A stretch of DNA of 64,000 bases from the human T2T-CHM13v2.0 reference genome, Homo sapiens (GCA_009914755.4 CP086569.2:11680001-11744000), one strand, 5' to 3'; numbered from the stretch's first letter, positions 30,901-64,000 are shown. Numbers and translations: made by a program. Notes: generated by a model not told the origin, from the sequence alone.

Positions 30901-31670
30901 TGATTCCATTCAATTTCATTCAATGATTCCATTGGATGATTCCATTCCATTCCATTGGATGATTCCATTTGATGATGACACCATTCAATTCTGTTTGATG
31001 ATTCCATTCGATGATTTTAAATTTGATTCCATTGGATGATACCATTTGTAAACATTCGATGATGATTCCATTCAATTCCATTCGTTGATTCCATTTGATT
31101 ACATTCGATTATGATTCCATTCGATTCCTTTTGATGATTCCATTTGATTCTATTCAATGATTCCATTCGATTCCATTCGATGATGATTCCATTCGATTCC
31201 ATTCGATTTATTCCATTTGATTCCATTCGATGATTCCTTTTGATACCATTCAATGATGATTCCATTCGATTCCATGTGATGATGATTCCTTTCGATTCTA
31301 TGTGATGATGATTCCATTCGATTTCATTTGATGATTCCATTTGATTCCATGTGATGATGACTCAATTCGGTTCTATTGGACGACTCCATTTGATGATGAT
31401 TCCATTCGATGATTCCATTCAATTTCATTCAATGATTCCATTTGATGATTCCATTCCATTCCATTGGATGATTCCATTCGATGATGATACCATTCAATTC
31501 TGTTTGATGATTCCATATGATTCCATTTGATGATTCCATTCGATGATTTTAAATTCGATTCCATTGGATGATACCATTTGTATCCATTCGATGATGATTC
31601 CATTCAATTCCATTCGTTGATTCCATTTGATTACATTCGATTATGATTCCATTCGATTCCTTTTGATGAT
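27950..31670 (-). repeat. pentameric satellite, HSATII-like variant (ATTCC-strand on plus; frequent CATTCGATGATGATTCC units)
   Basis: Continuous attccattcgatgattccattcgattccattcaatgatgattcc...; abrupt start after unique sequence at about 27950. Confidence 0.85.
30650..31668 (-). repeat. tandem duplication of a ~510 bp satellite segment (30650-31160 approximately equals 31165-31668, high identity)
   Basis: Shared long strings, e.g. ccatgtgatgatgattcctttcgattctatgtgatgatgattccattcgat..catttgatgattccatttgattccatgtgatgatgactcaattcggtt and gattttaaat..cgattccattggatgataccatttgta..cattcgatgatgattccattcaattccattcgttgattccatttgattacattcgattatgattccattcgattccttttgatgatt, in both copies. Confidence 0.8.
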
Positions 31671-34600
31671 TGATGGAATGGCGACGAATGGAATATAACC
31701 GAATGGAATGGCATCGAATGAAATGGAATGGAACGAAATTTAATGGACTCGAATGGAATGGACTGGAATAAAAGGGAATCGAACGGACTGGAATGGAACG
31801 GAACAGAATAGAATGGAACCGAATTGAATGGAATGGAGCCGAATGGAATGGAACCGAATGGAATGGAATTGAATGGTTTGAAAAAGAATAGAATGGAATG
31901 GAGTGTAATGGAAAGATATTGAATTCTATGGGATGGAGTGGAATGGACTCGAATGGAAAGGAGTGTAATGGAATGGAATCAAATGTAATGGACTGGAGTG
32001 GATTGGACACGAGAGGAATGGAAACGAATGGAAAGGAAGAGCATGGAATTGAAAGAAATAGAGTGGAATGGAATCAGATGGTATGGAATGGAATGGAATG
32101 GTGATGAATGGAAATGAATCAAAAGCAATTGAATCGAATGGCATGGAAAGGAAAAGAATGGAATGGAATGGAATGAAATGGAATGGAATATACTTGAATG
32201 GAATAGAACAGAATGTAATGGCAAAGAATGGAATGGAATGGAATAGAATGAAATGGAATGCATTGGACCCAAATGTAATGGACTCGAGTGGAATGGAATG
32301 AAATTGAATGGACCCGAAAGGAATGGTCTCTAATGGAATTTATTCAAATAGAATTGAATCGAATGGAATGCATTATTAGGGAATGGAATCGAATGGAATG
32401 GAATCAAATGGAATTGACTGAAACCAAATGTACGTAAATAGAATGGACTCGAATGTATTGGATTGAAAAGTAATTGATTTGAATGGAAGGGAATCAAAAG
32501 TAATGTAATCAAAAGGAATGGAATGTCATGAAAAAGAATGGAATAGATTGGTATGCAATACAGTGGAACGGAGTGGAATCGACTGGAATGGAATTCCATG
32601 GAATGTAATCGAATGGAACGGAATCAAATGAAATGGACTGGAAAGGAATGGACTCGAATAGAATGAACTGGAACACAATGGAATCGACCAGATTGGAATG
32701 GAATGGAATAGAATGTACTCAAATGGCATTGAGTCGAATGAAATGGAACCAAATGGAATGGAAACGAATGTAACAGAATTGAATGGAATTGTAAAGAATA
32801 CAATGGAATGGAGTGTAATTCAAAGATATTGAATGTAATGGAATGGAATGAAACGTACTTGAATGAAATACATTCGAATGGAATGAATTGGAATTCAATG
32901 GACTCTAGTGGAATGGACTGGAATGGAATGGACTTGAATGGAAGGGACCACAGTGGAGTGGATCGAAAGGAAGGGAAACGAATGGAATGGAATGGAATAG
33001 AATGGAATGGCATCGGATTTAATGGTATCGAATGGAATGCAATTGAACAGAATCGAATCGAATGGAATGACATCAAATGGAATGGAATGGAATGGGATGG
33101 AATGGGATCGAATGGAATGGACTCGAATGGAATAGAATCAAAAGGATTGGCATGGAATGGAATGGAACTGAATGGAAAGGAATGGACCCAAATGGAATGG
33201 ACTCGAATGGAATGGACTCAAATAGAAAGGAATCGAAAAGAATGGTCTCTAACGGAATTTATTCAATAGAATGGAATCGAATGGAATGCAATAGCATGGA
33301 ATGGAATTGAAAGATATGGAAGAAAATGGATAGGAATGGAATGGACTGGACTGGACTAGAAGGGAATCGAATGTAATGGATTGCAAAGTAATTGATTCGA
33401 ATGGATTAGAATAAAATGGAATGTAATAAAACGGGAGGGAATGGAATGCAACGGATTGGAAAAGAATGGAATGCAATAAAATGGAAATGTGTGAAATCGA
33501 GTGGAATAGATTTGAATGGAATGGAGTCAAATGGAATGGAATCAAATGGAATGGACTGGAATGGAATGGACTACAATGGAATGAACTGGAACAAAATGGA
33601 ATGGAATGGATTGGAATCGAAAGGAAAGATAAGGAACGGAATGGAATGGACTCAAATGGAATTGACTCGAATGGAATGGAACCAAATGGAATGAAATTGA
33701 ATGGAATGGAAATGAATGGATTCGAAAGGAATAGAATGAAATGGAGTCTAAAGGAAAGATGCCAAATGGAAAGGAATGGAATGGAATGTAGTTGAATGGA
33801 ATGGAGTGGAATGGAATGGACTCGAATGGAATGGACTGGAGTGGAATGGACTCGAATGGAATGGAAAAGAACTGAATGGCATGGAATGGTAAGGAAAGTA
33901 ATGGAATGTTAAGTAAGAGTATGGAATGGAATCATATGGAATGGAATGAAATGGAAAGGAATGGAATGGAGTCGAATGGAATAGAATCCACAGGAATGTC
34001 TCCAAATGCAATGGAATGGAATGGAATGGAAAGAAGTCGAATGGAATGGAGTATAATGGAATGGAATGGAATGGACCCAAATGTAATGTACTCACATAGA
34101 ATGGACACACATGGAGTAAACTTGAAAGGAATTACCTTGAATGGAATTTATTCGAATAGAATGGAATCGAAAATAAAGCAATAATATGGAAGGGAATCGA
34201 ATGGAATGTAGTCGAATGGAATGGACCAGAATGGAATGGATTGGAATAGAATGGCTCGAATGTAATGGACAGCAATGTATTAGATTCGAATGGAATGGAT
34301 TCAAATGGCATCGAATAGAATGGAATATAATTAAACGGAATGGAATGGAATACATTGGAATGGAATAGAATGGAATGGAATCTAGTGGAATGGAATCAAA
34401 TGGAATGGAATTGACTGGAATGGAGTGGAATGAAATGGGCTCGAATGGATTGGACGGAAACAAAATGAAATAGAACAGATTGGAATTGAATGGAAACGAA
34501 TGGAATTGAATGGAATGGACTCGAATGGAATGGTGTCGAATGGATGGAATCAAATGGAATGGACTGGAAAGGAATGGACTCCAATGGAATGGACTGGAGT

Positions 34601-37600
34601 GGAATGGACTGAAATGGAATGGAATGGAATGTAAAGGAATGGAATGGAATGGAATGGAATGGAATGGAATGGAATGGAATGGAATTGATTAGAATGGAAT
34701 GGAATCAGATGGAACGGAATGGAATGAAAAGGAGTTGAATGGAATGGCATCAAATTCAATGGAATGGAAGGGAATCAAATTGAATGGAAATGAATGGAAT
34801 GCAAGGGTATGGAATGGAAAGGAATACAATGGAATTGAAATGGATGGAACGCATTTGAAAGGAATTGAGTCGAATGCAATATAATCGAATGGAATGGCAT
34901 CGAATGGAATTTAATGGAATGCAATGGAATGGACTCGAAAGGAAAGGATTTGAATGGAGTGGAATCGAATGTAATGGACTGGAGTGGAATGGACTCGAAT
35001 GAAATGGAAACGAATCGAATCGAAGGGAATGGAAAAAAAAAGGAATAGAATGGAATGGAATTGTATGTAGCAGAATGGAATGGAATGGAGTTGAAGAGAA
35101 TAAATTGGAATGGAATGGCACTTCGAATGGAATGGAATGAACTCTGATGGAATTGACTCGAATGGATTAAAAAGAATGGAATGCCATCGAATGAAATGGA
35201 ATGGAATTGAATGAAATGGACAGAAATATAATGGACCCAAATGTGATGGACTCGAATGGAATGGACTCAAATAGATTGGGATCGAAAAGAATGGCCTCGA
35301 ATGGAAATTATTCGAATAGAATGGAATTGAAAGGAATGGAATAGTATGGAATGGAATAGAATGGAATGGAATCAAACGGAATGGAACGTAATGGAACAGA
35401 TTGTAATAGAAAGTGCTCGAATGTAATGGATTTCAAAGCAATTGATTGGAATTGAGTGGAATAGAATGGAATGTAATCAAATGAAATGGAATGGAATGCC
35501 ATGGAATGAAATAGAATGGAATGCAATGGATTTAAATAGAAAGAAATGCAATGGAATGGAAAGGAGTGCAATCGAGTAGAATGGAATCAAATGGAATGGA
35601 ATCGAATGTAATGGACTGGAACGGAAAGGACTCCAATTGAATGCACTGCAAAAAATGCAAACGAATGGATAGGTATTGAACGGACAAGAATGGAATGGAA
35701 CTGAAAGGAATGGACTCGACTGGAATGGAGTGGAATGGAATGGAATCGAATAGAAAGGACTGGAATTGAATGGAAACTAATTGAAAGGAAATCAATGGAA
35801 TGGAAAGAATGAAATACAATGGAAAGGAATGCAATACAATGGAACAGAATGGAATGAAAAGGTATAGAATGGAATGCAATCATGTGGAATGGAATAGAAT
35901 GGAATGGAATGGACTCCAAGGGAATGGACTCAAATGGAATAGAATGGAAAGGAAGGGCATGGAATGGAATTTAAAGGAATGGAATAGAATGCAGTGCACC
36001 GAAATGTAAGGGAATCAAAAGGAAGTTACTCAAATGGAATTTATTCGAACAGAATGGAATCAAATGGAATGCAACAGTATGGAATGGCATCAAATAGATT
36101 GGAATCGAACACAGAGGACTGGAGTGGAATGGACTGGAATAGAACGGACCAGAATGCAATGAATTGCAATGTAATCGATTTGAATGGAAAGGAATCGAAT
36201 GGAATGTATTCAAATGGAATGGAATGGAATGCAATGGAATGGAATAGAATGGAATACAATGGAATGGAATGGAGAGGAAACGAGTGGAATGGAATGGAAT
36301 GGAATGGAATGGAACGGAATGGAATCTATTGGAATTGATTGAATTGGAATGGACTGGAAAAAAATGGAATTGAAATGATTGGAATCAAGCGGAATGGAAT
36401 GGAATGGAATGGAATGCAATGGAATGGAAAGGAATGGAATGGAATGGAACAGAATGGAACGGCCTAGAATGGATTGCACTGAAATGGAATGGACTGGAAC
36501 AAAATGAAATCGAACGGATTGGAATCGGGCAGAATTATATGGAATGGAAGGGAAGGGAATTGACTCGAACAGAATGTAGTCGAATGGAATGGAATCGAAT
36601 AGAATGGAATTGAATGGAATCGAAATGAATAGAATTAAATTGACTGTAATGGAAAGATATCGAATGGAAGGGAATGGAAAGGACTCGAATGGAATGGACT
36701 GGAATGGAATGGATTCAAAGGGAATGTAGTGGAATGGAATGCAGTAGAATGTAATGGAAAGGAATGGAATGGAATGGAAAGGAACGGAAAGGAATAGAAT
36801 GGAATGGAATCAGATGCAACAGAATGAGATGGAATAGATTCAAATGAAATGGACTCCAATGGAATAGAATAGAATGGAATGGCATCGAATAGTATGGCAT
36901 GAAAGGGAGTGTAGTGGAAAGATATCAAATAGAATGGAATGGACTCGAATAGAATCGACTGGATTGGAATTTACTCGAATGGAATGGAATAGATTGCAAG
37001 GGACTCGAATGGAATGGAAACGAATGGAATGGAATGGAATGGAATGGAAAGGAATAGAATGGAATGGAATCAGATGGAACGGAACAGAATTTAATGGAGT
37101 CAAATCGAATAGAATCGAATGGAATGAAACGGAATGGACTCGAATGAAATGGACTAGAATGGAAAGGAATCTAATGGAATGGCATGGAATGGAATAGAAT
37201 TTAAAGGAATAGACTGGAATGGAATCGGATGGAATGGAACGAAATTTAATGGAGCCAAATGTAATAGAATCCAACAGAATGGCAATGAATGAATGAAATG
37301 GAATGGACTCGAATGAAACGGACTAGAATGGAATATAATCGAATGGAATTCCATGGAATGGAATGGAATGGACCAAAATATAATACACTCGAATGGAATC
37401 AACTCAAATATAATGGAAACGAAAGGAATGGTCTCGAATGGAATTTATTTGAATTTAATGAAATCTAATGGAATGCAACAGTATGGAATGGTATTCAATG
37501 GAAAGGAATCGAATGGAATGTACTGGTATGGAATGGAGTGAAATGGAATGGACTCGAATGTAATGCATTGCAAAGTAATTGATTTGAATGGAATGGAATC

Positions 37601-40600
37601 GAATGGAAAGTAATCAAATGGAATGGAATGGAATGGAATAGAATGCAATTCAATGGACTGGAATCGCATGGAAAGAAGTGGAATAGATTCGAATGCAATG
37701 GAAAAGAAAGGATTGGAATCGAATGGAATGGACTCGAAAGGAATGGAGTGGAATAAAATGGAATTGAATGGATTGGAATCGAACAGAACGGAATGGAGTG
37801 GAATGGAGTGGAATGGAATGGAATGGAATGGAATGGAATGGAATGGAATGGAATGGAATGGAATGGAACCGAATGGAATGGAGTCAAATGGAATGGAAAT
37901 GAATGGAATGGAAAGGAACAGAATGGAATAGTGTGGAATGGATAAATATGGAGTGGAATGGAATGGAATGGAATGGAATCAAAAAGAATGGGCGGGGTAG
38001 TTATGGAATCCAATGGAATGGACTACAACGGAATGGACTCGAATGGAATGGAAACGAAGGGAATGGAAAGGAATAGAATGGGTACGAATAGAATAGAATG
38101 AAATAGGATTGAACAGAATGGAATGCAATGGAGTGGAATGGAATAGAATCCAATGGAATGGCATTTAATGGAATGGAATGGAAAGGAATGGACTCGAATG
38201 AAATACAACAGAATGGAATGACATAAAATTAATTGGAAAGGAATGGAAAGGACCCAAATGTAATGGACTAGATTGGAATTTACTCAAATACAGTGGACTT
38301 GAAAGGAATGGTGTCAAATGGAACTTATTCTAATAGAATGGATTCAAATGGAATGCAGTAGAATGGAATGAAATCGAATGGAATGGATTTGAATGGAATG
38401 CAGTAGTATGGAATGAAATCGAATGGAATGGAATAAAATGGAAATGAATTTAAGTGAATGGACTGGAATAGAACGCATAACAATGTAATAGATTGCAATG
38501 TAATTGGTTTGAAAGGAAAGGATTCCATTGGAATATAATCAAATGGAATGCAATGGTATGCAATGGAATGTAATAGAATGGAATGCAATAAAATGGAATG
38601 GAGTGAAATCAAATGGAATGGAATCGAATGGAATGGAATTGAATGGAATGGATTCGAATGGAATGCACTGGAATGGAATGGATTTGAATGGAAAGGAATG
38701 GAACGAAATCGAATTGAACAGTTTGGAATCGAATGCAATGTAATGGAATGGAATGGAATGGAATGAAATGGAATGGAATGGAATGGATTCGAAAGGAATT
38801 GAAGGCTAGAATAGAACTGAATGGAACTGAATGGAATAGAATGGAATGGAGGGTAATGGAAAGACATCGAAAGGAATGCAATGGAAAGGACTCGAATGGA
38901 AAGGACTGGAATGAAATGGACTCGAGTGGAATGGACTGAAATGGAATGGAGACGAATGGATTGGAATGGAATGGAATGGAAAGGATTGGAATGGAATGGA
39001 ATCTGATGGAATGGAATGGAATGAAGTGGTGTTGAATGGAAAAGAATCATATGGAATGGCATTGAATGGAACGGAATAGAATGGACAGAAATAGAATGGT
39101 ATCGAATGTAATTTATTTGAATAGAATGCAATCGAATGGAATGCAATACTATGGATTGGAATCGAATGGAATGGAACGGAATAGATAGGACTGAAATAGA
39201 ACGGACTCGAATGAAATGGATTGCAATGTAACTCATTCAAATGGAATCGAATTGAATGGAATATCATCTTATGAGATGGAATGCAATGCAAAGAAATGGA
39301 ATAGAAAGCAAAGTAAAGGAAAGGAACGGAGTTGAATCGAGTGTAATGGAATCAAATGGAATGGAATCGAAAGGAAAAGACTGGAATGGAATGGACTCGA
39401 ATGGAATGCATTTTAACAAAATGGAATTGAAAGTATTGGAATCGAACGGAAAGGAATTTAATGGAAAGGAATTGAATAGAATTGAAAGGAATAGAATGGA
39501 ATTGAGTGTAATGGAATGATATCGAATGAAATGGAATGGAAGGTAATGGACTCAAATGGAATGGACTGTAAAGGAATGGACTCGAAAGGAATGGACAGAA
39601 CTGGAAAGGACTCGAATGAAATGGAAATGAATAAAATAATTTTGAATGGAATAGAATAGAATGGAATGGAATCAGATGGAACGGAATGGAATGGAATGGA
39701 CTTGAAAGGAATGGACTCGAAAGAAATAGAATAGAATGGAATGGAAGGGAAGGAGTTTAATGGAAAGATATCGAATGAATTTAAAGGAATGGAATGGAAT
39801 CGAATGGAATAGACTGGATTGGAATTTAATGGAATGGACTGGAGTGGAATTTACTCGAATGGAATAGAATGGAGTGGAATGAACTCGAACGAAAAGTAAA
39901 CAAATGGAATGGAATGGAATGGAGTGGAATGGAATGGAATGGAACGGAAAGGAATAGAATGAAATGGAATCAGGTTGAAAATAATGGAAAGGAATGGAGT
40001 CGAATGGAATGGAATCGAATGAAATGGCATCGACTGGAATAGAATGTAATGGGCTCAAATGGAATGGACTCGAATGGAATAGAATGCAATGGAATGACAT
40101 AGAATGGAATAGAATAGAATGGATTGGAATGGAATGGAATGGACCCAAATGTAATGGACTCGAAAGCAAGGGACTCAAATAGAATGGTCTCAAAGGAATG
40201 GTCTCGAATGGAATTTATTAAAATAGAATGGAATCGAATGGAATACAATAGTATGGACTGGAATCGAATGGAATTCAATAAAGTGAAATGGAATGGAATG
40301 GAATGGAATGGAGTAAAACGGACCAGAATGTAATGGATTGCAATGTAATTTATTAAAATGGAATGGAATTGAATGAGATTTAATCAAATGTAATGGCATG
40401 GAATGCAACGGAATGGAATAAACTGGATTGCAATGGAATTGAACGGAGTGGAATCAAATGCAATGGAACCGAATGGAATGGAATCGATTGGAATTGACTG
40501 CTATTTAATGGACTGATAGGGAATGGACTCGAATGGATAGGACTGGAACAACATGGAATCGAATGCATTTGAACTGAATGGAAAGGAAAAAAATGGAATA

Positions 40601-52600: not shown

Positions 52601-55600
52601 GACTCAAACGGAACGGACTCAAATACAATGGACTTGAAAAAAAAGGGTTTCGAATGGATTTTATTCGTAACAAATGGAATCGAAAGTATTGTAATAGGAT
52701 CGAAAAGAATTGAATGGAATGGAATCGAATGGAATGTACCAGAATGGAATGGAGAGGAAAAGAATGGGCAAGAATATAATGGATTGCAATGAAATTGATT
52801 CGAATGGAATTAAATCGAATGGAATGTAATCAAATGGAATGGAATTCAATGCAATTGAATGGAATAGAATGGAATGCAATGGAATGGAATTCAGTGGAAT
52901 CGAGTGGAATGGAATCAAATGGAAAGGAATAGAATGGAATGGACTCGAATGGAATGGACTTGAAGTAAATGGAATCGTAAGGATTGGAATCAAATGGAAC
53001 AGAACGGAATGGAATTGAATGGAGTGGACTCGAATGGGATGTACTCGAATGGAATGGAATCGAATGGAATGCAACTGAATGGAACCGAATATAATGGAAT
53101 TGAATGGAGTGTAATGGAATGATATAGAATGGAATGGAATGGAATGGAATCGAATGGACACGAATGGAATGGACTGGTCTGGAAGGGACTGGGAAGGAAT
53201 GCATTGTAGTGGAAAGAACTCAAATGGAATGGAAACGAATGTGAAGGAAGGGAATGGAATTGAATGGCAACAAAAGGAAAGGAATGGAATTGAATCGGAT
53301 GGAATGGAATGGAAGGGAATGGAGTTGAGCGGAATAGAATCTAATGGAATGGCATCGAATGGAATGGAATGGACTAGAATGGAACACACTCAGGTTGAAT
53401 AGAATCAAAAGGAATGGCATCGAATGGATTGGAATGGAATGGAATGGAATGGACCCAAAAGTAATGAACTCGAAAGCAATGGATTCAAATAGAATGGACT
53501 CGAAAGAATTGATCTCGAATGGAATATATTCGAATAGAATCTAAAAGAATGGGAAGCAATAGTATGGATTGCAATAGAAAGGAATGGAATTGAACAGAAT
53601 ATAGCGCAATGGAATGAACTGGAAAAAATGGAATCGAACAGATTGAAATCGAACTGAACAGAATGGAAGGGAATGGAATTGAGTGGAATGGAATGTAATG
53701 GAATGGTCTCAAATGGAATGGACTGGAGTGGAATGGAGACGAATGGAATGGAAACGAATGGAATGGAAAGGGATGGAATGGAATGCAAAGGAATATAATG
53801 GAATTGTTTCAGATGGAATGTAATAGAATGGCTTTGAATGGAATAGATTCAAATGGAATGGCATTGAATGGAATCGAATGGAATGGATTGGAATGGAATG
53901 GAATGAAATGGACCCAAAAGTACTAGGCTGTAATGGAAAGGACTCAAATAGAATGGACTCAAAAGGAATGGTCTTCAAAGGAATTTATGGGAACAGAATG
54001 TAATCGAATGGACTGCAATAGTATGGAACGTAATAGAATGGAGCGGAATAGAATGGAATGAAATGGAATACAATGGAATGGAATAGAAAGGACATGAATA
54101 TACTGGATTACAATGCAATTGATTGGAATGGAATGGAATCAAATGTAATGTAATCAAATGGAAAGGAAGGGTATGCAATGGAATGCAATAGAATGGAATG
54201 CATTGGAATGAAACGCAGTGGAATCAAGTGGAATGGAATCGAATGGAATGGAATCAAATGGAATGGAATCAAATGGAGTGGAAACGAATGGAATGGAATT
54301 GAACAGAATGGAATCGAATAGAAAGGACACGAATGAAATGGACAGGAAAAAAACTGGAACCGATCGGAATGGAGTAGAACAGAATTGAATGGAATGGACT
54401 CGAATCAAATCGAGTATAATGCAATGGAAAGTAATGCGATGGAATCGACTGGAAATGAATTGAATGGAAATGAAAGGAAAAGAATGGAATGGATTTTAAT
54501 GGAAATATATCGAATAGGATAGAATGGAATGAAATGGACCCTAAAGGAAAGGGCTGGAATGGATTGGATGCGAATGGAATGTACTGGAGTTAAATGGACT
54601 CTAATGGAATGGAAACGAATGGAATAGAATGGAAAGACATATAATGAAATGGAATCAGATATAATGGAATGGAATAGAATGGTGTCAAATGGAATAAAAA
54701 CGAAAGGAATGGCCTCAAATGGAATGGAATCCAATTGAATGGAATGGAATCGAATAGAATGTAAACGAATGGAATGGAATTGAATAGAATGAAATGGAAT
54801 GGAAAGGACAAGAATGAAATGGATGGGAACGAAATGGAAGAGAACGGACTGGAGTAGAACGGAAAGGAATGGAATGGAATGGAATGGAATAGAATGTAAT
54901 GGAATGGACTCGAATCAAATGGAGTCTAAAGGAATGGAAAGTAATGCAATGGAATCCAATTGAAATGAATTGAATGTAATTGAAAGAAATAGAATGGAAT
55001 GGAGTGTAAAGGAAATATATGGAATGGGATAGAATGGAATGAAATGGACCCTAAAGGAATGGGCTGCAATGGAATGGATGCGAATGGAATGGACTGGAGT
55101 GAAATGGACTCTAAAGGAATGAAAACTAATGGAATGGAATGGAAAGGCATAGAATGGAATGAAATCAGATGGAATGGAATGGAATGGAATGGAATGGAAT
55201 GGAATGGAATGGAATGGTGTCAAATGGAATAGAATTGAATGGAATGGCATCAAATGGAATGCAATGGAATGGAATGGAATGGAATGGCCCAAAATATAAT
55301 TTACTAGAAACGAATGGACTCAAAAGAATGGAGTTAAAAGTCATGGTCTCGAATGGAAGTTATTCGAATACAATGTAACTGAAAGGAATGCAATAATATG
55401 CAATGGAATCAAATAAAATGTAATTGAATGGAATGTACCAGAATGGAATGGACTGGAATAGAACGGACTCGAACGTCATGGATTGCAATGTAATTGATTC
55501 AAATGGATTGGAATCGAATGGAATGGAATCGTATGGAATGGAATTGAATGGAATGGACCGGAAAGAAAAGGACAGGAATAGAATGGAAATGAATGTAATG

Positions 55601-58600
55601 CATTGCAATGAAATTGATTCGAATTGAATGGAATTGAACGGAATATAAACCAACGGAATGGAATGGAATGGAATGCAATGGAATGGAATGGAATGGAATG
55701 CAATTAAATGGAATGGAATAGAAAGGAATCGATTGGAATGGAATCTAATTGAATGGAATTGAATAGATTGGAATTGAATAAAATGTATTGGGAAGGAATG
55801 GACTCGAATCGAATGGATTGGAACAAAACGGAATCGAACGATTGGAATTGAATGGAACGGAAAGGAATGGAATCGAATCGAATGGAATGGAGTCGAATGG
55901 AATGGAATCAATTGGAATGGAAACGAATGGAATGGAGTAGAACGGAACCAAAAGGAATAGATTGGAAAGGATTGTAATGAAATGTTATCAAATAGAATGG
56001 AGTGGAATGGAATGGAATCACATGGAATCGACTGGAATAGAATGGACACGAATGGAATGTACTGCAGTGGAATGGACTTGAAAGAATGGAAACAAAAGGA
56101 ATGGAATGGAATGGTATGCAAAGGAATTGAATGGAAAGGAATCTAATTGAGTGGAATCGAACCAAACGGAATGGAGTGAAATGGACTCGAATGGAATGGA
56201 GTTAATTGGAATGGAATTGAATGGAATGTAATTGAATGGGTTGGAATTGAATGGAATCAAAAGGAATAGATTGGAATTCAGTGTAATTGAAAGATATCGA
56301 ATGGAACGGAATGGAATGGAATGGACTCACATGGCATGGACTGGAATGGAAAGAACTCGAACGGAATGGAGTCGAAAGCTATGGAATTGAATAGAATAGC
56401 ATTGGAAGAAATGGAATTGAAAGGAATTAAAGGAATTGAATGGTATGGAGTGTAATGGAACGAAATCAAATGGAATGAAATGGAATGAAATGGACTCGAA
56501 TGGAATTGACAGGAAAAGAATGGAATCAAAAGTTATATACGTGAGTGGAATGGACTCGAATGAAATGAACTGGAGTGGAATGGACTAGAATTTAATGGAA
56601 ACGAAAGGAATGGAATGGAATGGAATGGAAATGAATGCAATAGAATGGAATGGAATCTGATAGAATGGAAAGGAATGGAATGCAGTCGTATGGAATAGAA
56701 TCTAATAGACTGACATAAAATGGAAAAATGGAATGGAATTGAATGGAATGGAATGGATTCGAATTGAATGGCCTGGAACGGAATGTAATAGAATGGAATG
56801 GCATCGAACAGAATGGAATGGAATGATATGGAAGGGAATGGAACCAAATGTAATGGAATCGAATGGAATAGACTTAAATAGAATGGACTCTAAAGGAATT
56901 GTTTCAAATGCAATTTATTCGAATAGAATGAAATAGAATGTAATGCAATAGTATGGAATAGAATTGAATGGAATAGAATCGAATGGAATGAACAGGAATG
57001 GAATAGACTGGAATAGAACAGACCCTCATGTAATGGATTGCAATGTAATTGATTCGAATGGAATGGAATCTAATGGAATGGAATCAAACGGAAAAGAGTG
57101 GAATGCAATGTAATGGAATAGAATGGAATGCACTGCAATGGAATGGAACAAAATGGAATGGACTGGAACAAAATGGAATCAAAAAGACTGGAATCGAACT
57201 GAATGGAAAGAAATGTAATGGAGTGGAATGGACTTGCATGGAATGGAGTTGAATGGAATGGAATCGAATGCAATGGAATTCAAAGGAATTGAAGAGAATG
57301 AAATGGATTTGAATGGAATGGAATGGAATAGAATAGAATGGAGTGTAATGGAAATATATCGAATGGAATGAAATGAAATGGATTGGACTCGAATGGAATG
57401 GACTGAAATGGAATGAAATTGAATGGAAAGGAGTGGAGTGGGGTGGACTCGAATGGAAAGGAAACGAATGGAATGGAATGGATTGGAGCGTAATGGAAAG
57501 GAATAGAATGGAATGGAATTCGATGGAATGGAATCGAATGGAGTGTAATGGCAAAGAATCTTATGGGATGGCATTGAATGGAATGGAAAGGTATGGAATG
57601 GAATGGACTGAAAGGAATTGATTCTAGTGGAATGGAATCGAATGGAATTGCATCGAATGCAATGGAATGGAATGGAAACGGATGGACAAAATATAATGGA
57701 CTCGAAGGGAATCGACTCAAATAGAATGGACTCGAAAAAAATAATCTCGAATGGATTTTCTTCATATAGACTGGAATCGAATGTATTGCAATAGTATCGA
57801 AAGGAATTGAATGGAATGGAATCTAATGGAATGTACCAGAATTGAATAGAGTGGAATAGAACGGACATGAATGTAATAGATTGCAATGAAATTGATTCGA
57901 ATTGAATTGAATCAAATGGGATGAAATCAAAAGGAATGGAGTGGAATGCAATGGAATAGAATAGAAACGAATGCAGTGGAAAGAACGGAATGGAATCGAT
58001 TGGAATGGACTGGATTGGAATGGACTCGAATGAAATGGAATGGAAAAATAATGGAATCGTATGGATTTGAATTCAACGGAACGGAACGGAACGGAACGGA
58101 ATGGAATGGAATGGATTCGAATGGAAAATAGTCAAATGGAAAGGAATTGAATGGAATGGAATCGAATGGAATGCAACTGAATGGAATAGAAATGAATACA
58201 ATGGAATAGAGTGTAATGGAAAGATATAGAGTGTAATGGAATGGAATAGAATGGACTGGAATGGAATGGACGGGAATTCAATGGACTTGAATGGAATTCA
58301 CTGAAGGGGAATGTACTCGAATGGAATGGAAACCAATGGGATGGAATGGAATGGAATTGAAAGGAAAGGAATACAATGTAATGGAAGCTGAAGGAATGGA
58401 ATGGAATGGAATGGAGTGGAATGGAATAAAATCGAATGTAATGGCAAATAACGGAATATAATGGAATGGAAAGGATGTGAATGGAATTGACTCGAGTGTT
58501 AACGAATCGAACGGAATGGCATAAAATGGAATGTAATATCATGGAATGTAATGGAATGGAATATACCCAAATGAAAAGGATTCAAATGCAATGGATTCAA

Positions 58601-61600
58601 ATAGAATTGACTCGAAAGAAATGGTCTCAAATGGAATTTATTCGAATAGAACAGAAAAGAATGGGATAAAATAGTATGGAATGCAATCCAATGGAATGGA
58701 ATCGAACGGATGGTAGAGCGATGGAATGGACTGGAACAAATAGGAATCAAAAGGATTGGAATCAAACTGAATGGAACAGAAGGGAATGGAATGGAGTGGA
58801 ATGGAATGGAATGTATTTGAATGGAATGGACTGGAGTGGAATGGACTCGAATGGAACGTTAACGAATGGGAAGGAATGGAATGGAATGGAATGGGATGTA
58901 ATAGAAAGGAATATAAAGGAATGGAATCAATTGGAATGGAAAGGAGTAGAATGGAATAAAATCGAATGGAATGGCATCAAATGGAATGGAATGGATTCGA
59001 ATGGAATGGAATGAAATGAACCCAAATGTACTGAGCTCTAATGGAATTGATTCATATGGAATGGACTCAAAAGGAAAGGTCTTGAAAGGAATTTATTCGA
59101 ATAGAAATCGAATGGACTGCAATAATATGGAATGTAATTGAAAGGAAATGAATGGAATGGATTGGAATGGAATGGAATGGAATAGAATGAACTCGAATGT
59201 ACTGGATTGGAATGCAATTGATTTGAATGGAATGGAATTCAAAGTAATGTAATCAAATGGAATGGAATGGTATGCAAAAAATGCAATAGAATGGAATGCA
59301 ATGCAATGGAACGGAGTGGAATCGAGTGAAATGAAATCGAATGGAATGGAATCAAATTCAACAGAATCAAATGGAATGGAAGCGAATGAAATGGAATTGA
59401 ATGAAATAGAATGGAATGGAAATGACACGAATGAAATGGAAAGGAACAAAATGGAATACAACGGATTGGAGTAGAACGGAATGGAATGGAATGGAAAGGA
59501 ACGGAATTGAAAGGAATAGAACCGACTCAAAAGGAATGGAGTCGAATGTAATGGAAACTAATGCAATGGTATTGAAAGGAATGGAATTGAATGGAATTGA
59601 AACGAATGCAATGGAATGGAGTGTAATTGAAACATATCGAATGGAATTGAATGGAAAGGAATGGACTGGAATGGAATGGATTCCAATGTAATGGACTGGA
59701 GTGAAATGTACTCTAATGGAATGGAAACCAAGGGAATGAATTAGAATGGAAAGGAAAGGCATAGAATGAAATGGAATTGCATATAACGGAATGGAATGAA
59801 ATGGAGTTGAATAGAATCAAATTCATTGGAATGACATCGAATAGAATGGAATGGAATGGAATGGAATGGAATGGAATGGAATGGAATAGTCTCGAATGAA
59901 ATGGAATAGAATGGAATAGAATAGAATGTAAAGGAAAGAATGGAATGGAATGGAATGGACCCAAATGTAATGGGCTCAAATGGAATGGACTCAAATAGAA
60001 TGGACTTGAAAGGAATGGTGTCGAATGGAATTTAATCGAATGGAATGGAAACGAATGCAATCGACCTGAACGGAATGGACTGGAATAGATAGGACTTGAA
60101 CATAATGGACTGCTGCATACTAGATTCGAATGGAATGGAATCGAATGGAATGAAATCAAAAGTAGTGAAATGGAAAGCAATGGAATGGAATATAATGGAA
60201 TGCAATGTAGTGGAACTGAGTGGAATTGAGTGGAATGGAATAGAACGGAATATAATCGAATGGAAAGGAATCAACTGGAGTGAACTGGAATTGAATGTAC
60301 TCGAATGGAACGGACTGGAACAAAATGGAATAGAACGGATTGGAATAGAATGGAACGGAATGGAATGGAATGGAATGGACTCGAGTGGAAAAAAGTCGAA
60401 TGGAATGGAATAGAATGGAATGGAATCAAATGGAATATTATTTAATGGAATCGAAAGGAATAGAATGGAATGGAATCTAATGGAATGATATCGAATGGAA
60501 TGGAATGGAATGGACTCAAATGGAATGGACTACAATGGAATGAACTCAAATGGATTAGAATGGAGTGGAATGGATTCGAATGGAATGGAAATATATGGAA
60601 TGGAATGTAATGGAAATAAATAGAATGGAATGGAATAGGATGGAAAGTAATGGAAATGAAAGGAGTGGAATGGAATGGACTCAAATGGAATGGCATGGAA
60701 TGGAATGGAATGGAATGGAATGGAATGGAATGGACACCAATGGAATTGAATCAAATGGAATGGCATGGAATGGAATGGAATGGAGTGGAATGGGCCCAAA
60801 TGTAATGGACAAGAATGGAATGGACTCACATAGAATGGACCAAAAAGGAATGGTATCAAGCGGAATTTATTCGAATAGAATGGAAAAGAATGGATTGAAA
60901 TAGTATGTAATGGAATGCAATGGAGTAGAATCAAATTGAATGTACCAGAATGGAAAGGACAGGAATAGAATGGACTCGAATGTAATTGATTGCAAAGCAG
61001 TTTATTCGAATGGAGTGGAATCGAATGGAATGAAATGAAATGGAAAGGAATGGAATGCAGTGCAAACGTATGGAACAGAATGGAATGCAATGGAATGGAA
61101 TGGAGTGGAATAGAATGGAATGGAATTGAAAGGTGTGGAATCAAATGCAATGGAATCGAATGGAATGGAATTGAATGAAATCGAAAGGAATAGAATGCAA
61201 TGGATTGTAATGCAAATATATCCAATGGATTGGAATGGAATTCACTCGAATGGAATAGACTGGAATCTAATGGACTCAAACGGAACGGACTGGAGTGGAA
61301 TGGATTCAAATGCAGTAGACTGGAGTGGAATGGACTCAAAAGGAATGTAAACGAATGGAATGGAACTGAATGGAATGGAATGGAATGAAACAGAATGGAA
61401 AAGAATAGAATGGAATGGAATCGTATGGAACGGAATGGAATGGAATGTTATCAAATGGAATAGAATCGAATGGAATGGCATCAAAAGGAATGAAAGGGAA
61501 TAGAATGGAAACAAATGGAATAGAATCGAATGGAATGACAGAGAATGGAATGGCATGAAATAGTATGGAAAGGAATGCACTCAGAAGTAAAGGACTCAAA

Positions 61601-64000
61601 TGGAATTCACTTAAATAGAACGGCATCAAAAGAAATGGACTCTAGTGGAATTCACGCGAATAGAATCAAATAGAATGGAGTGCAATAGTGTGGAAAGGAA
61701 TCGAATGGAATGGAATCGAATGGAATGGAGCTTAATGGACTGGACTGCAGGAGAATTGACTCGAATGTAATGGATTGCAAAGAAATAGTTTGGAATAGAA
61801 TGAAATCCAATGGAATGCAATCGAATGGAATGGAAAGGAATGCATTGGAATAGAATAGAATGGAATGCAATGGAATGAAAGGTAGTGGAATCGAGTGGAA
61901 TGGAATCAAATGGAATGGAATCGAATGGAATGTACTGGAATGGAATCGATTCGAGTGGAATCTACTGGAACAAAATGGAATCAAATGGATTGGAATCAAG
62001 TGGAACAGAATGGAAAGGATTGGAAAGGACTTGAATGGATTGGGGTAGAAAGAAATTGAATCTAATGGGGTGGAATAGAAAAAATAGAAAGAAAAAGAAT
62101 TTAATGGAGTGTGATGGAAACATATGGAATGGAATTGAAAGGAATGTAATGGACTAGAATGGAATGGACTGGAGTGGAATGGACTCGAATGGAATGGAAA
62201 TGAATGGAATGGAATCAATGCAATGGAAAGGGGAAGAATAAAACGGAATCGGATGGAATGAAATGTAATGTAATAGAGTCGAATGGAATAGAATAGAATG
62301 GAATGGAATCGATTGGAATGGAATGCAGTGGAATGGAATGGAATGGAATGGAATGGAATGGAATGGAATGGACTCGAATGGATGAGAATGGAATGGAATG
62401 AAATGGAATGGAAGGGACACAAATGGACCCGAACGGAATGGGCTCTACTAGAATGGAATCGAAAGGAATGGTCTCGAATGGAATTTCTTCAAATAAAATG
62501 GAATGGAATGGAATTCAAAGTATGCAACGGAATCGAATGGAATGGAATCGAATGGAATGCACAAGAATGGAATGGAATGGAATAGAACGTACACAAATAT
62601 AATGGATAGTAATCTAACTGTTTTTAATGGCATGGAATCGAATGGAATGTCGTCAAATATAATGCAATGGAATGCAATGGACTGTAATAGAATGGAATGC
62701 AAAGGAATTGACACAGTGGAATCGAGTGGAATGGAATCAAATGGAATGTAATCGATTTTAAAGGAATCGAAAGGAATGGAATCGAATGGAATGGAATTGA
62801 ATGTATGCCAAAGGAATAGAATGTTATGGAGTGTAATGGAAGTATAATGAATGTAATGTAATGGAATGGAATGGAATCGAATGGAATTGACTGGATTTGA
62901 ATGGACTCGAATGGAATGGAGTGGATTGGAATGAAATGGAATGGAATGGAATGGAATGCAATGGAATGGAATTGGATGGAACGGAATGGAATGGAATGTA
63001 GTCGAATGGCATAGAATTGAATTAAATGGCATCGAATGGATTGGAATTTAATGTAGTGGAAGGGATGTGAATGGAAAGGAATTGAGTGGAAAAGAATGAA
63101 ATGGAATGTCATGGAATGGAATGGAATGGAACGGAATGGAATGGAATGGAATGGAATGGAATAAACCCAAATGTAATGGACTCAAATGGAACGGAATCAT
63201 ATAGGATGCATTAGAAAGGTATGGCCTCGAATGGAATTTATTCGAATAGAATGGAATCAAAAGTAATGCAATAGTATGGAATGCAATCGAATGGAATGCA
63301 ATGAAATGGAATGGAACGGAATGGAATGGACTGGAATACAACAGACTGGAATATAATGGATTGCAATGTAATTGCTTTCAATAGAATGGAACGTAATCAA
63401 ATTGAGTGGAATGGAATGCAATGAAATGGACACGAATGGAATGGACACGAATGGAATGGAATCGAATGGAATGGAATTGAATGGAATCGAAAGGAATAAA
63501 ATGGAAGGGAGTGTAATGGAAATATATCAAATGGAATGGAATGGAATGGAATGGTATTGACTCGAATGGAATGGACTGGAATAAAATGGACTCGAATGAC
63601 ATAGAATCAAATGAAATGGCTTCGACTGGAATGGAAGGGAATGAAATGGAATGGAATGGACCCAAATATAATGGAGTAGAATGGAATGGACTCAAATTAA
63701 ATTGACTCTAAAGGAATGGTATCAAATGGAATTTATTCGAATAGAATGGAATCGAATGGAATGCAAAAGAATGGAATGGCATCGAATGGAATGGAATCCA
63801 ATAGAGTGGACAAGAATGGAAAGGACTGGAATAGAATGGACTCAAATGTCGAAAGTATTGGAATGAAACGTATAGGAATGGAACAGAATGGGCTCGAATG
63901 GAATGGAGTCGAATGGAATGGAATCGAAAGGAATAGAAACAAATGGAATGGAATTGAATGGAATCAAAATGAATAGAATGGAATAGAGTTTAATAAAGAT
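31671..64000 (+). repeat. pentameric (GGAAT)n satellite, HSat3-like, G-rich strand on plus; runs to the end of the window
   Basis: Continuous ggaatggaatggaatcgaatggaatggactcgaatgg...; pure (GGAAT)8-11 runs at about 34637-34685, 37811-37867, 47731-47770, 50387-50436, 55171-55215, 62331-62375. Confidence 0.9.

What the first reader, a model, noticed from the sequence alone, without database searches (positions are those of the whole stretch)
32300..64000. Cryptic ~0.9-1.1 kb higher-order periodicity in the HSat3-like block
An AT-rich landmark (GGAATTTATTCGAATAGAATGGAATCGAATGGAATGCAATAGTATGG, usually preceded by GGACCCAAATGTAATGGACTCGAATGG...GGTCTCGAATGG) recurs about 35 times. The spacing is mostly 0.8-1.2 kb, for example 32336, 33250, 34150, 35300, 36045, ... 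62490, 63240. A second landmark, GAGTGTAATGGAAAGATATCGAATGG, recurs at similar intervals. The array therefore looks like a degraded ~1 kb higher-order repeat rather than a simple pentamer. The landmark is absent from the 27.95-31.67 kb block, which supports the two blocks being different subfamilies.
Basis: seen in the sequence. Interest (0 to 1): 0.5.

Follow-up and report, generated by a model that had tools for sequence, protein, structure and literature searches.

The report
Decayed 890-bp repeat unit in HSat3
The 32-kb (GGAAT)n satellite block consists of about 38 strongly diverged, length-variable copies of an ~890-bp unit (178 pentamers), which is a real but eroded kilobase-scale "nested tandem repeat" of a kind already described for human satellite 3, so it is ordinary for this class of DNA.

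Summary
A ~122-bp landmark block recurs 38 times on the + strand between 32,264 and 63,657. It scores 37 hits of at least 79 bits plus one degenerate copy, against 0.05 hits per unit-shuffled array. It is absent from the 28.0-31.7 kb block. Spacing is quasi-periodic: median 846 bp and CV 0.35, against 0.84 for random placement.

The landmark is the head of a colinear ~890-bp module of 178 pentamers in one unbroken 5-bp register. Modules are only ~75% identical (66% for shuffled controls), and identity does not fall with distance. Lengths range from 299 to 1,554 bp through internal deletions and duplications. A few 2-3-module duplications at lags of 4.9-7.5 kb are younger (83-87%).

Global autocorrelation and a periodogram barely detect the period, so "cryptic" is apt. 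The period is 0.85-0.89 kb, not 0.9-1.1 kb. More than 110 further distinct modules with the same spacing (median 886 bp) occur in human-contaminant metagenome contigs.

Kilobase units in satellite III are long known, for example clones of 584-3,564 bp and the T2T "nested tandem repeats". The neighbouring block is HSat2-like, not another HSat3 subfamily. The finding is real and ordinary, and of low interest.

The parts
31671..64000 (+). HSat3-type (GGAAT)n array. It runs off the window end. It consists of one truncated leading module plus 38 modules.
   Evidence: GC skew +0.55 to +0.64 and GGAAT density; module profile hits tile the whole interval.
31671..32263 (+). Truncated leading module (model positions ~321-838) that abuts the HSat2 junction. 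It has no landmark.
   Evidence: 31674-32160 = model 321-822; 32127-32266 = 694-838; best landmark score here 57 bits.
32264..33181 (+). Module 1, 918 bp, full length (model 1-889).
   Evidence: (109.5 bits).
33182..34070 (+). Module 2, 889 bp, full length.
   Evidence: (113.4 bits).
34071..35230 (+). Module 3, 1160 bp: model 1-876 plus a repeated 3' part (486-889).
   Evidence: (90.6 bits).
35231..35973 (+). Module 4, 743 bp: model 1-766, 3' end missing.
   Evidence: (112.8 bits).
35974..37368 (+). Module 5, 1395 bp, with internal duplications (11-530, 330-852, 476-803, 614-884). It has two copies of landmark 2.
   Evidence: (79.1 bits).
37369..38249 (+). Module 6, 881 bp, full length.
   Evidence: (100.5 bits).
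38250..39046 (+). Module 7, 797 bp: 2-153 plus 88-818 (small duplication inside the landmark).
   Evidence: (102.0 bits).
39047..40138 (+). Module 8, 1092 bp, with a degenerate landmark: 39-814 plus a repeated 3' part.
   Evidence: (71.8 bits).
40139..41387 (+). Module 9, 1249 bp: 1-684 plus 485-824 plus 448-748.
   Evidence: (111.7 bits).
41388..41686 (+). Module 10, 299 bp: head only (1-313).
   Evidence: (111.4 bits).
41687..42491 (+). Module 11, 805 bp: 1-824.
   Evidence: (98.7 bits).
42492..43576 (+). Module 12, 1085 bp: 1-878 plus 385-675. This landmark was not in the training set.
   Evidence: (86.8 bits).
43577..44622 (+). Module 13, 1046 bp: 1-154, 219-749, 456-889. It is a paralogue of module 22 (86%).
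44623..45279 (+). Module 14, 657 bp: 1-673.
   Evidence: (93.6 bits).
45280..46125 (+). Module 15, 846 bp, full length.
   Evidence: (106.4 bits).
46126..46491 (+). Module 16, 366 bp: head only, followed directly by a new landmark.
   Evidence: (114.8 bits).
46492..47037 (+). Module 17, 546 bp, internally deleted. It is a paralogue of module 23 (84-86%).
47038..47889 (+). Module 18, 852 bp, full length. It is a paralogue of module 24 (87%).
47890..48712 (+). Module 19, 823 bp, full length.
48713..49815 (+). Module 20, 1103 bp: 1-669 plus 372-888.
49816..51050 (+). Module 21, 1235 bp: 2-494, 301-500, 426-878, 262-551.
51051..51416 (+). Module 22, 366 bp: 9-152 plus 218-480. It is a copy of the head of module 13 (lag 7.47 kb).
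51417..51935 (+). Module 23, 519 bp. It is a copy of module 17 (lag 4.9 kb).
51936..52582 (+). Module 24, 647 bp: 2-693. It is a copy of module 18. This landmark was not in the training set.
   Evidence: (92.5 bits).
52583..53448 (+). Module 25, 866 bp, full length. It is a paralogue of module 30 (84%).
53449..53907 (+). Module 26, 459 bp: 1-191 plus 559-843 (internal deletion). Module 31 has the same architecture.
53908..55284 (+). Module 27, 1377 bp: 1-819 plus 314-874. It is a paralogue of module 32 (85%).
55285..56838 (+). Module 28, 1554 bp, the longest: 1-247, 115-755, then three repeats of ~430-770.
   Evidence: (84.2 bits).
56839..57685 (+). Module 29, 847 bp, full length.
57686..58564 (+). 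Module 30, 879 bp, full length.
58565..59016 (+). Module 31, 452 bp: 4-201 plus 567-836 (same deletion as module 26, lag 5.1 kb).
59017..59954 (+). Module 32, 938 bp: 2-374 plus 328-889.
59955..60790 (+). Module 33, 836 bp, full length. This landmark was not in the landmark training set.
   Evidence: (97.1 bits).
60791..61575 (+). Module 34, 785 bp: 1-784.
61576..62409 (+). Module 35, 834 bp, full length.
62410..63164 (+). Module 36, 755 bp: 13-777.
63165..63656 (+). Module 37, 492 bp: 4-279 plus 475-709. Window 62957-63488 is 100% identical to 532 bp of metagenome contig OOQC01033765.1.
63657..64000 (+). Module 38, cut by the window end.
   Evidence: (107.3 bits).
28022..31670 (-). Neighbouring HSat2(B)-like block in the opposite orientation. 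It is context, not part of the module array. The head-to-head junction lies at about 31,670.
   Evidence: TRF periods 23/26/49/75; HSat2B 24-mer with 2 exact hits and 22 hits at 2 or fewer mismatches; junction sequence.

Best explanation
The block is an old, no-longer-homogenised array of a nested tandem repeat of HSat3-type satellite.

Inferred history:
1. A stretch of about 178 GGAAT-derived pentamers (~890 bp) accumulated a fixed pattern of variant pentamers. These include the 'landmarks'.
2. That stretch was amplified head-to-tail as a unit, by unequal crossing-over or a similar tandem-duplication process (inferred).
3. Amplification and homogenisation then stopped, and copies diverged independently to ~75% identity (shown).
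4. Slippage or unequal exchange between the pentamer-rich 3' two-thirds of the unit deleted or re-duplicated internal segments. Unit length now ranges from 0.3 to 1.55 kb (shown).
5. A few 1-3-module segments were later copied 4.9-7.5 kb away (shown).
6. An inversion or juxtaposition against an HSat2 block cut the first module (shown as anatomy; the order of events is inferred).

The structure is a relic of satellite evolution and not a device with a sequence-specific function. Length variation destroys phase after one or two units, so the period is visible through landmarks and profiles but hardly through autocorrelation.
For: - 38 landmark copies with non-random spacing.
- An 890-bp consensus of exactly 178 pentamers in a single 5-bp register. 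89 are canonical GGAAT, and 176 of the 177 pentamers read in register differ from GGAAT at 2 or fewer positions, so the landmarks are diverged pentamers and not foreign DNA.
- Colinear alignment of 17 modules at 75.3% identity, against 66.3% for unit-shuffled controls.
- The module profile reads 1->889 cyclically. 20 of 38 modules give one hit spanning at least 740 model positions, 5 of them outside the training set. Short modules are clean internal deletions and long ones are internal duplications.
- Landmark 2 is phase-locked at about +490 to +600 bp.
- Identity does not depend on module lag (lag 1: 0.735; overall mean: 0.739), so there is no ongoing local homogenisation. The exceptions are three duplicated segments at 83-87%.
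- Independent sequences confirm the unit. 117 metagenome contigs carry the landmark, giving 147 spacings with median 886 bp, 110 further non-redundant modules, and 28 near-full-length module matches of 730-901 bp.
- Literature: kilobase repeat units in satellite III clones of 584-3,564 bp (PMC4022460 Table S1). 'Nested tandem repeats' in HSat2,3, with length varying between subregions of an array (bioRxiv 10.1101/2021.07.12.452052).
Against: - Global, landmark-free tests are weak. There is no discrete peak in base autocorrelation. The periodogram peak at 808 bp has P=0.11. The k-mer interval peak reaches only z~3-4.5.
- Only about half of the modules are near full length.
- The amplification mechanism and the order of events are inferred from anatomy and were not observed.
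- Module and landmark profiles were built from the window itself, although independent contigs validate them.
Confidence: 0.9

Rival explanations
1. The landmarks are pieces of a non-satellite sequence, for example an old transposable-element fragment. It inserted into a simple (GGAAT)n tract and was then co-amplified, as described for some HSat3 arrays.
For: [quoted passage not shown] The landmark is more AT-rich than its surroundings and looks different from them.
Against: The whole 890-bp consensus, landmarks included, stays in one 5-bp register. Every landmark pentamer is 1-3 substitutions from GGAAT (GGTCT CGAAT GGAAT TTATT CGAAT AGAAT ...). No Rfam family was found in the one scan made, which covered window 1-32000 and so reached only the first ~330 bp of the array; the landmark copies were not scanned.
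Confidence: 0.03
2. There never was a ~0.9-kb unit. The recurrences come only from a few recent multi-kilobase segmental duplications within a heterogeneous pentamer array.
For: Duplicated segments exist at lags of 4.9, 5.1 and 7.5 kb, and they are the most similar pairs (83-87%, up to 90% in 200-bp windows).
Against: All 38 modules share the landmark and the colinear order at a uniform ~74% identity, whatever their distance apart. The duplications involve only 12 modules. More than 110 further modules elsewhere have the same unit length.
Confidence: 0.03
3. The landmark spacing is maintained by selection. The conserved head of the unit would be a protein-binding site or transcription start, phased at about five nucleosomes, within a satellite that acts as a transcription-factor platform or a stress-induced lncRNA source.
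For: HSat3 arrays are reported to be dense in TEAD, NFAT and HSF1 motifs and to act as binding platforms (PMC11526998). The head third of the unit keeps its diagnostic variants better than the tail aligns.
Against: Column conservation in the landmark (0.7-0.9) is no higher than in the next 200 bp. Module length varies five-fold. Copies are as diverged as neutral decay from a common ancestor would give, with no distance effect. No functional data can be obtained with these tools.
Confidence: 0.04
4. The pattern is chance recurrence, mutational convergence, or an assembly artefact in a simple pentamer repeat.
For: Pentamer arrays give many partial matches to any pentamer-derived probe. Hundreds of sites lie within 10-12 mismatches of the 47-mer.
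Against: The score distribution is bimodal, with 37 hits observed against 0.05 per shuffled array. The spacing CV is far below random. Modules differ by ~25%, which cannot arise from a collapsed or duplicated assembly. Independent contigs reproduce the structure, and one is 100% identical over 532 bp.
Confidence: 0.005

Closest known systems
Nested tandem repeats (NTRs) of HSat2/HSat3 arrays in T2T-CHM13 (Altemose et al., bioRxiv 10.1101/2021.07.12.452052)
   Same: Both are kilobase-scale units made of diverged (CATTC/GGAAT)n pentamers and repeated head to tail. Unit length is inconsistent and varies between subregions of an array. The unit is detected by the spacing of rarer k-mers.
   Different: The NTRs shown in that work give clear NTRprism peaks. 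Here the copies are ~75% identical and five-fold variable in length, so the spectrum peak is weak. I could not check whether this particular array or its period is reported there.
Cloned satellite III repeat units: pK-1 (806 bp, HSat3A2), pR-4 (1026 bp), pE-2 (584 bp), pTRS-47 (1366 bp), pW-1 (1524 bp) (PMC4022460 Table S1)
   Same: These are sub-kilobase to kilobase units of (GGAAT)n-derived satellite III. pK-1 at 806 bp is close to the unit size here. The nearest Table-1 subfamily 24-mer in the window is also the HSat3A2 one (6 hits at 1 mismatch).
   Different: Those units were defined by restriction periodicity, which implies better-conserved copies than the ones here.
DYZ1 (HSat3A6), the 3.56-kb unit on Yq, and the 1.77-kb HSat2A2 unit on chromosome 1
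   Same: They show the same principle: a long unit built from diverged pentamers and amplified as a block.
   Different: Those arrays are megabase-sized and highly homogeneous, with 24-mer 'fold compression' of 82-127 against 6-8 for HSat3A1/A2/A4. The present array is small-scale, old and heterogeneous.
Divergent alpha-satellite HORs (dHOR) and monomeric layers flanking active centromeric arrays
   Same: [quoted passage not shown] Both lie next to other pericentromeric satellites.
   Different: The monomer differs (171 bp against 5 bp), as do the family and origin. Alpha HORs consist of a discrete number of equal-length monomers.

Membership tests
HSat3 / classical satellite III (broad sense: (GGAAT)n-derived pentameric satellite) | The sequence derives from tandem GGAAT/ATTCC pentamers. 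| tested here: met
   The consensus unit is 178 pentamers in one register, 89 of them canonical GGAAT, and 176 of the 177 pentamers read in register differ at 2 or fewer positions. Autocorrelation peaks at multiples of 5. TRF periods are 5/10/15.
HSat3 / classical satellite III (strict sense) | The pentamers are interspersed with the specific 10-bp motif A(T/C)TCGGGTTG. The review PMC8125562 mentions 'a specific 10 bp sequence'; the motif sequence itself is from my own knowledge of Prosser et al. 1986. | tested here: not met
   There are no exact matches and one 1-mismatch match in 64 kb, fewer than the 4.7 expected by chance.
HSat3 / classical satellite III | Pericentromeric or acrocentric short-arm location in a hominoid genome. 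| tested here: inconclusive
   The array is flanked by an HSat2B-like block and a primate IGKV1-type V exon. A human-associated metagenome contig shares 532 bp at 100% identity. No CHM13 cenSat entry read on chr2, chr10, chr7, chr20 or chr22 has matching block sizes. The chromosome is not determined.
HSat3 subfamilies A1-A6 / B1-B5 (Altemose 2014) | [quoted passage not shown] | tested here: inconclusive
   Only the single commonest 24-mer per subfamily (Table 1) was available. None matches exactly. The nearest is 3A2, with 6 hits at 1 mismatch and 61 at 2 or fewer; B1 and B4 have none at 3 or fewer. The full list (Dataset S2) is held only in truncated form, and the part read lists only HSat2A1 k-mers.
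Nested tandem repeat (NTR) of HSat2,3 | A repeat unit much longer than the pentamer, made of diverged pentamers, arranged head to tail with conserved internal order. | tested here: met
   and for independent contigs.
Nested tandem repeat (NTR) of HSat2,3 | A dominant peak in the k-mer nearest-neighbour interval spectrum (NTRprism). | tested here: inconclusive
   My own re-implementation with k=8-12 and rare k-mers gives a peak at 850-900 bp of z=3.2-4.5 over a shuffled null, with weaker peaks at ~1200 and ~1700 bp. The original tool and its default k=6 were not run.
Higher-order repeat in the alpha-satellite sense | A discrete number of similar-length monomers per unit, with unit copies far more similar to each other (typically >95%) than monomers within a unit. 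| tested here: not met
   Unit copies are 72-80% identical (mean 75%), against 66% background. Unit length ranges from 299 to 1554 bp.
HSat2 (for the neighbouring 28.0-31.7 kb block) | A 23/26-bp composite period derived from (CATTC)n with CGATGAT-type variants, plus subfamily 24-mers. | tested here: met
   TRF periods 23, 26, 49 and 75, with consensus TGATGATTCCATTCGATTCCATTCGA. The HSat2B 24-mer has 2 exact hits and 22 at 2 or fewer mismatches; no HSat3 24-mer matches within 2 mismatches.

The most novel reading that the evidence does not exclude
The ~890-bp unit is an undescribed, ancient HSat3A-type nested-repeat family. It is represented by at least 150 distinct modules in the human genome, possibly on several chromosomes. 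Its variant-rich 330-bp head has been kept recognisable by constraint, for example as a protein-binding or transcription-initiation module, and not by shared ancestry alone.
Probability: 0.05. Interest if true: 0.4.

Novelty: already known. Interest (0 to 1): 0.15.

Why it matters
It matters little beyond annotation. The result shows that this small, diverged HSat3 array keeps a readable ~890-bp unit structure. This gives unique, position-specific markers in what looks like simple pentamer repeat, which helps read mapping and assembly validation. It also gives a record of the array's history: one amplification, then decay, internal deletions and duplications, a few multi-module duplications, and truncation at an HSat2 junction.

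The result also corrects the reading of the neighbouring block, which is HSat2 and not an HSat3 subfamily. It does not change what is known about satellite III organisation.

Tried and rejected
- Fuzzy regex and a sensitive blastn self-alignment both timed out. I replaced them with Hamming and Sellers scans and a diagonal-window dot plot.
- Raw base autocorrelation shows only the 5-bp and 15-bp structure with a smooth decay.
- Exact k-mer lag histograms (k=14-26) are flat, apart from spikes caused by the segmental duplications.
- A landmark-free periodogram of canonical-pentamer density has its top period at 808 bp, but P=0.11.
- An Rfam gathering-threshold scan of 1-32 kb found nothing.
- A scan of GTDB genome contigs for the landmark 20-mer found nothing.
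- The exact IGKV-like ORF is not on record, so species and locus could not be fixed that way.
- The Altemose 2022 review and the Science version of the T2T centromere paper are not held.
- Dataset S2 (subfamily 24-mers) is truncated, and the part read lists only HSat2A1 k-mers, so a proper A/B subfamily classification was impossible.
- I tried to place the window by block sizes in the CHM13 cenSat table. HSat2(B)/HSat3(A1,A2,B3) junctions exist on chr2 (IGK region) and chr10p11. None read has a ~3.65-kb HSat2 block between at least 28 kb of non-satellite DNA and at least 32 kb of HSat3.
- I considered and rejected a two-type (dimeric) super-unit. Identity at module lag 2 equals that at lag 1.

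Full report
**What is in the window**

Positions 31,671-64,000 are a (GGAAT)n-type satellite on the + strand, with GC skew of about +0.6. Positions 28,022-31,670 carry pentamer-derived satellite in the opposite orientation. The first 28 kb are non-satellite.

**Checking the observation**

Hamming and edit-distance scans find it at the stated places: 32335, 33254, 34143, 35303, 36036 ... 62478, 63233, 63728. No site on the minus strand lies within 12 mismatches. Printing the hits with 85 bp of upstream sequence shows a conserved ~122-bp block. Its sequence is GGACCCAAATGTAATGGACTCGAATGGAATGGACTCAAATAGAATGGACTCGAAAGGAATGGTCTCGAATGGAATTTATTCGAATAGAATGGAATCGAATGGAATGCAATAGTATGG.

A profile HMM of this block gives a clearly bimodal result:
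- 37 hits score 79-115 bits, and one degenerate copy at 39047 scores 71.8 bits.
- The generic pentamer background scores 74 bits or less.
- The best score in the 28.0-31.7 kb block is 38.8 bits.
- Four strong hits (42492, 51936, 52583, 59955) were not in the training set.

Twenty arrays in which the pentamer-like units were shuffled gave one hit of at least 79 bits in total.

The 37 spacings have mean 848 bp, median 846 bp and CV 0.35. Hard-core random placement gives CV 0.84, and none of 20,000 simulations was as regular. The recurrence and its regularity are therefore real. The numbers need correcting:
- The modal bin is 0.8-0.9 kb (11 of 37).
- 18 of 37 spacings lie in 0.8-1.2 kb, and only 5 of 37 in 0.9-1.1 kb.
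- Eight are short (299-546 bp) and three are long (1.38-1.55 kb).

**Is it a unit or just a recurring motif?**

Seventeen inter-landmark segments of 740-945 bp align colinearly. The consensus is 890 bp with many conserved non-canonical positions. Three groups of these stand out:
- The landmark at positions 1-122.
- GGATTGCAAAGTAATTGATTC at about 195-222.

Mean pairwise identity is 75.3% (range 72-80%). The same sequences with their pentamer units shuffled and realigned give 66.3%.

Cut into fives, the consensus is exactly 178 pentamers in one unbroken register. Of these, 89 are GGAAT, 27 are CGAAT and 13 are GGACT. The 'AT-rich landmark' reads GGTCT CGAAT GGAAT TTATT CGAAT AGAAT GGAAT CGAAT GGAAT GCAAT AGTAT. 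The landmarks are therefore diverged pentamers and not inserted foreign sequence.

A profile of the whole module reads cyclically 1->889 along the array:
- 20 of 38 modules give a single hit spanning at least 740 model positions, 5 of them outside the training set.
- Short modules are clean internal deletions. Modules at 53449 and 58565 both read 1-~195 plus ~560-840.
- Long modules carry repeated copies of the pentamer-rich 3' part (35974, 53908, 55285).
- The array begins at the HSat2 junction in mid-module, at model position ~321.

The second landmark is phase-locked to the first. Of 25 good hits inside modules, 13 lie 488-602 bp after the module start, where about 4 would be expected if placement were uniform.

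**Age and dynamics**

Identity between module heads does not depend on their separation. It is 0.735 at lag 1, and the overall mean is 0.739. There is no sign of ongoing local homogenisation and no alternating super-unit.

Three younger duplications stand out at 83-87% identity, reaching 90% in 200-bp windows:
- Modules 17-18 and 23-24, at a lag of 4.9 kb.
- Modules 13 and 22, at a lag of 7.5 kb.
- Modules 25-27 and 30-32, at a lag of 5.1 kb. This pair shares the same internal deletion.

**Why global tests barely see the period**

Unit length varies five-fold, so phase is lost within one or two units. This explains the weak global signals:
- Base autocorrelation shows only the 5-bp lattice, a 15-bp sub-period and a smooth decay.
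- Exact k-mer lag histograms are flat.
- A periodogram of canonical-pentamer density peaks at 808 bp but is not significant (P=0.11).
- An NTRprism-like nearest-neighbour interval spectrum has a modest peak at 850-900 bp (z=3.2-4.5), with weaker ones near 1.2 and 1.7 kb.
- Counts of 100-bp windows with at least 80% identity show broad bumps near 0.8, 1.55, 2.35 and 3.15 kb.

'Cryptic' is a fair word for the structure.

**Related sequences elsewhere**

One record (L046) names a human gut metagenome, so I read these contigs as human contamination.
- 117 contigs carry profile-positive landmarks. The 147 intra-contig spacings have a median of 886 bp, with the bulk at 790-1000 bp.
- After removing redundancy, they add 110 distinct module heads.
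- Contigs of at least 4.4 kb give 28 near-full-length module matches of 730-901 bp in the same cyclic order.
- All contigs are only 71-84% identical to the window over their length.
- The exception is L009 (OOQC01033765.1), of which 532 bp are 100% identical to window 62957-63488. The rest of that contig diverges, probably because it is a chimeric short-read assembly.

The unit is therefore a property of a larger family of at least 150 modules. The window most probably comes from a human genome.

**The neighbouring block**

TRF finds periods of 23, 26, 49 and 75 bp in this block, with consensus TGATGATTCCATTCGATTCCATTCGA. The commonest HSat2B-specific 24-mer of Altemose 2014 has 2 exact hits there and 22 hits at 2 or fewer mismatches. 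No HSat3 24-mer comes within 2 mismatches. The block is HSat2(B)-like and joins the HSat3 array head to head at about 31,670.

**Subfamily of the HSat3 array**

None of the eleven Table-1 HSat3 24-mers matches exactly. The nearest is HSat3A2, with 6 hits at 1 mismatch. The classical 10-bp satellite III motif is absent. The complete 24-mer list is not available here. In CHM13, small diverged arrays next to HSat2B on chr2 and chr10 carry labels such as A1, A2 or the mixed '(B3,A1,A2)'. None of the entries I read matches the block sizes in the window.

**Comparison with what is known**

Kilobase units in pentameric satellites are long established:
- The 1.77-kb HSat2 unit of chromosome 1 and the 3.56-kb DYZ1 unit.
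- Satellite III clone units of 584, 806 (pK-1, HSat3A2), 1026, 1366, 1404, 1483, 1524-1556 and 1748 bp (PMC4022460 Table S1).

The T2T centromere study named such units 'nested tandem repeats' and reported new ones in several HSat2,3 arrays. It also showed that the predominant length varies widely between 100-kb subregions of one HSat3 array. HSat3A1, A2 and A4 are the least self-similar subfamilies, with 24-mer fold compression of 6-8. That fits an array of this kind.

The closest analogue in behaviour is the divergent alpha-satellite HOR, whose periodicity has been partly destroyed. The array meets the definition of an NTR. It does not meet that of a HOR in the alpha-satellite sense.

**Verdict**

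The period is 0.85-0.89 kb. The proper term is NTR. The neighbouring block is HSat2. This is a decayed example of a known kind of organisation. I could not test whether the 890-bp consensus equals a published clone such as pK-1. Interest is low.

Noticed in passing
window 15086-15424 (- strand): An open 112-codon frame encodes an apparently intact immunoglobulin kappa V-exon of the IGKV1 family ([96 protein letters not shown]). It has a Pfam V-set domain. The best database relatives are 93-95% identical and unnamed, and named relatives are primate IGKV1 genes. The exact sequence is not on record. It suggests an IGKV orphon or the IGK locus next to pericentromeric satellite.
   Followed up: partly
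It has 23/26/49/75-bp periods and exact HSat2B 24-mer hits. It lies in inverted orientation relative to the HSat3 array, with a sharp head-to-head junction (...GATTCCTTTTGATGATT|GATGGAATGGCGACGAATGG...) that truncates an HSat3 module at model position ~321.
   Followed up: yes
window 31700-64000: There is a 15-bp (three-pentamer) sub-period. Autocorrelation at lags 15, 30 and 45 exceeds that at neighbouring multiples of 5 (0.671 against 0.63). TRF reports period 15. The consensus unit is rich in GGAAT GGAAT CGAAT triplets (27 CGAAT in 178 pentamers).
   Followed up: partly
window 43.0-44.0 kb vs 50.5-51.5 kb; 46.5-47.5 vs 51.4-52.4 kb; 52.6-54.3 vs 57.7-59.4 kb: Multi-module duplications at lags of 7.5, 4.9 and 5.1 kb are 83-90% identical, younger than the basic modules. 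Region 50.4-52.4 kb is a mosaic of copies from two different source segments.
   Followed up: yes
window 10795-11490 (- strand), with neighbouring ORFs to 11883: A 231-codon ORF has a Pfam dUTPase match (E=9e-6). The adjacent ORFs look like retroviral pol fragments. This is probably an endogenous betaretrovirus-type remnant in the non-satellite flank.
   Followed up: partly
L009 (OOQC01033765.1) 609-1141 vs window 62957-63488: A public metagenome contig is 100% identical to the window over 532 bp and only ~70% identical over its remaining 600 bp. This looks like a chimeric short-read assembly of human satellite contamination. At least 120 such contigs carry this HSat3 landmark.
   Followed up: partly
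window 4001-6000: A strong AT skew (+0.39 and +0.22) stands out in the non-satellite flank. It was not examined. It could be an A-rich retroelement tail or a simple repeat.
   Followed up: no
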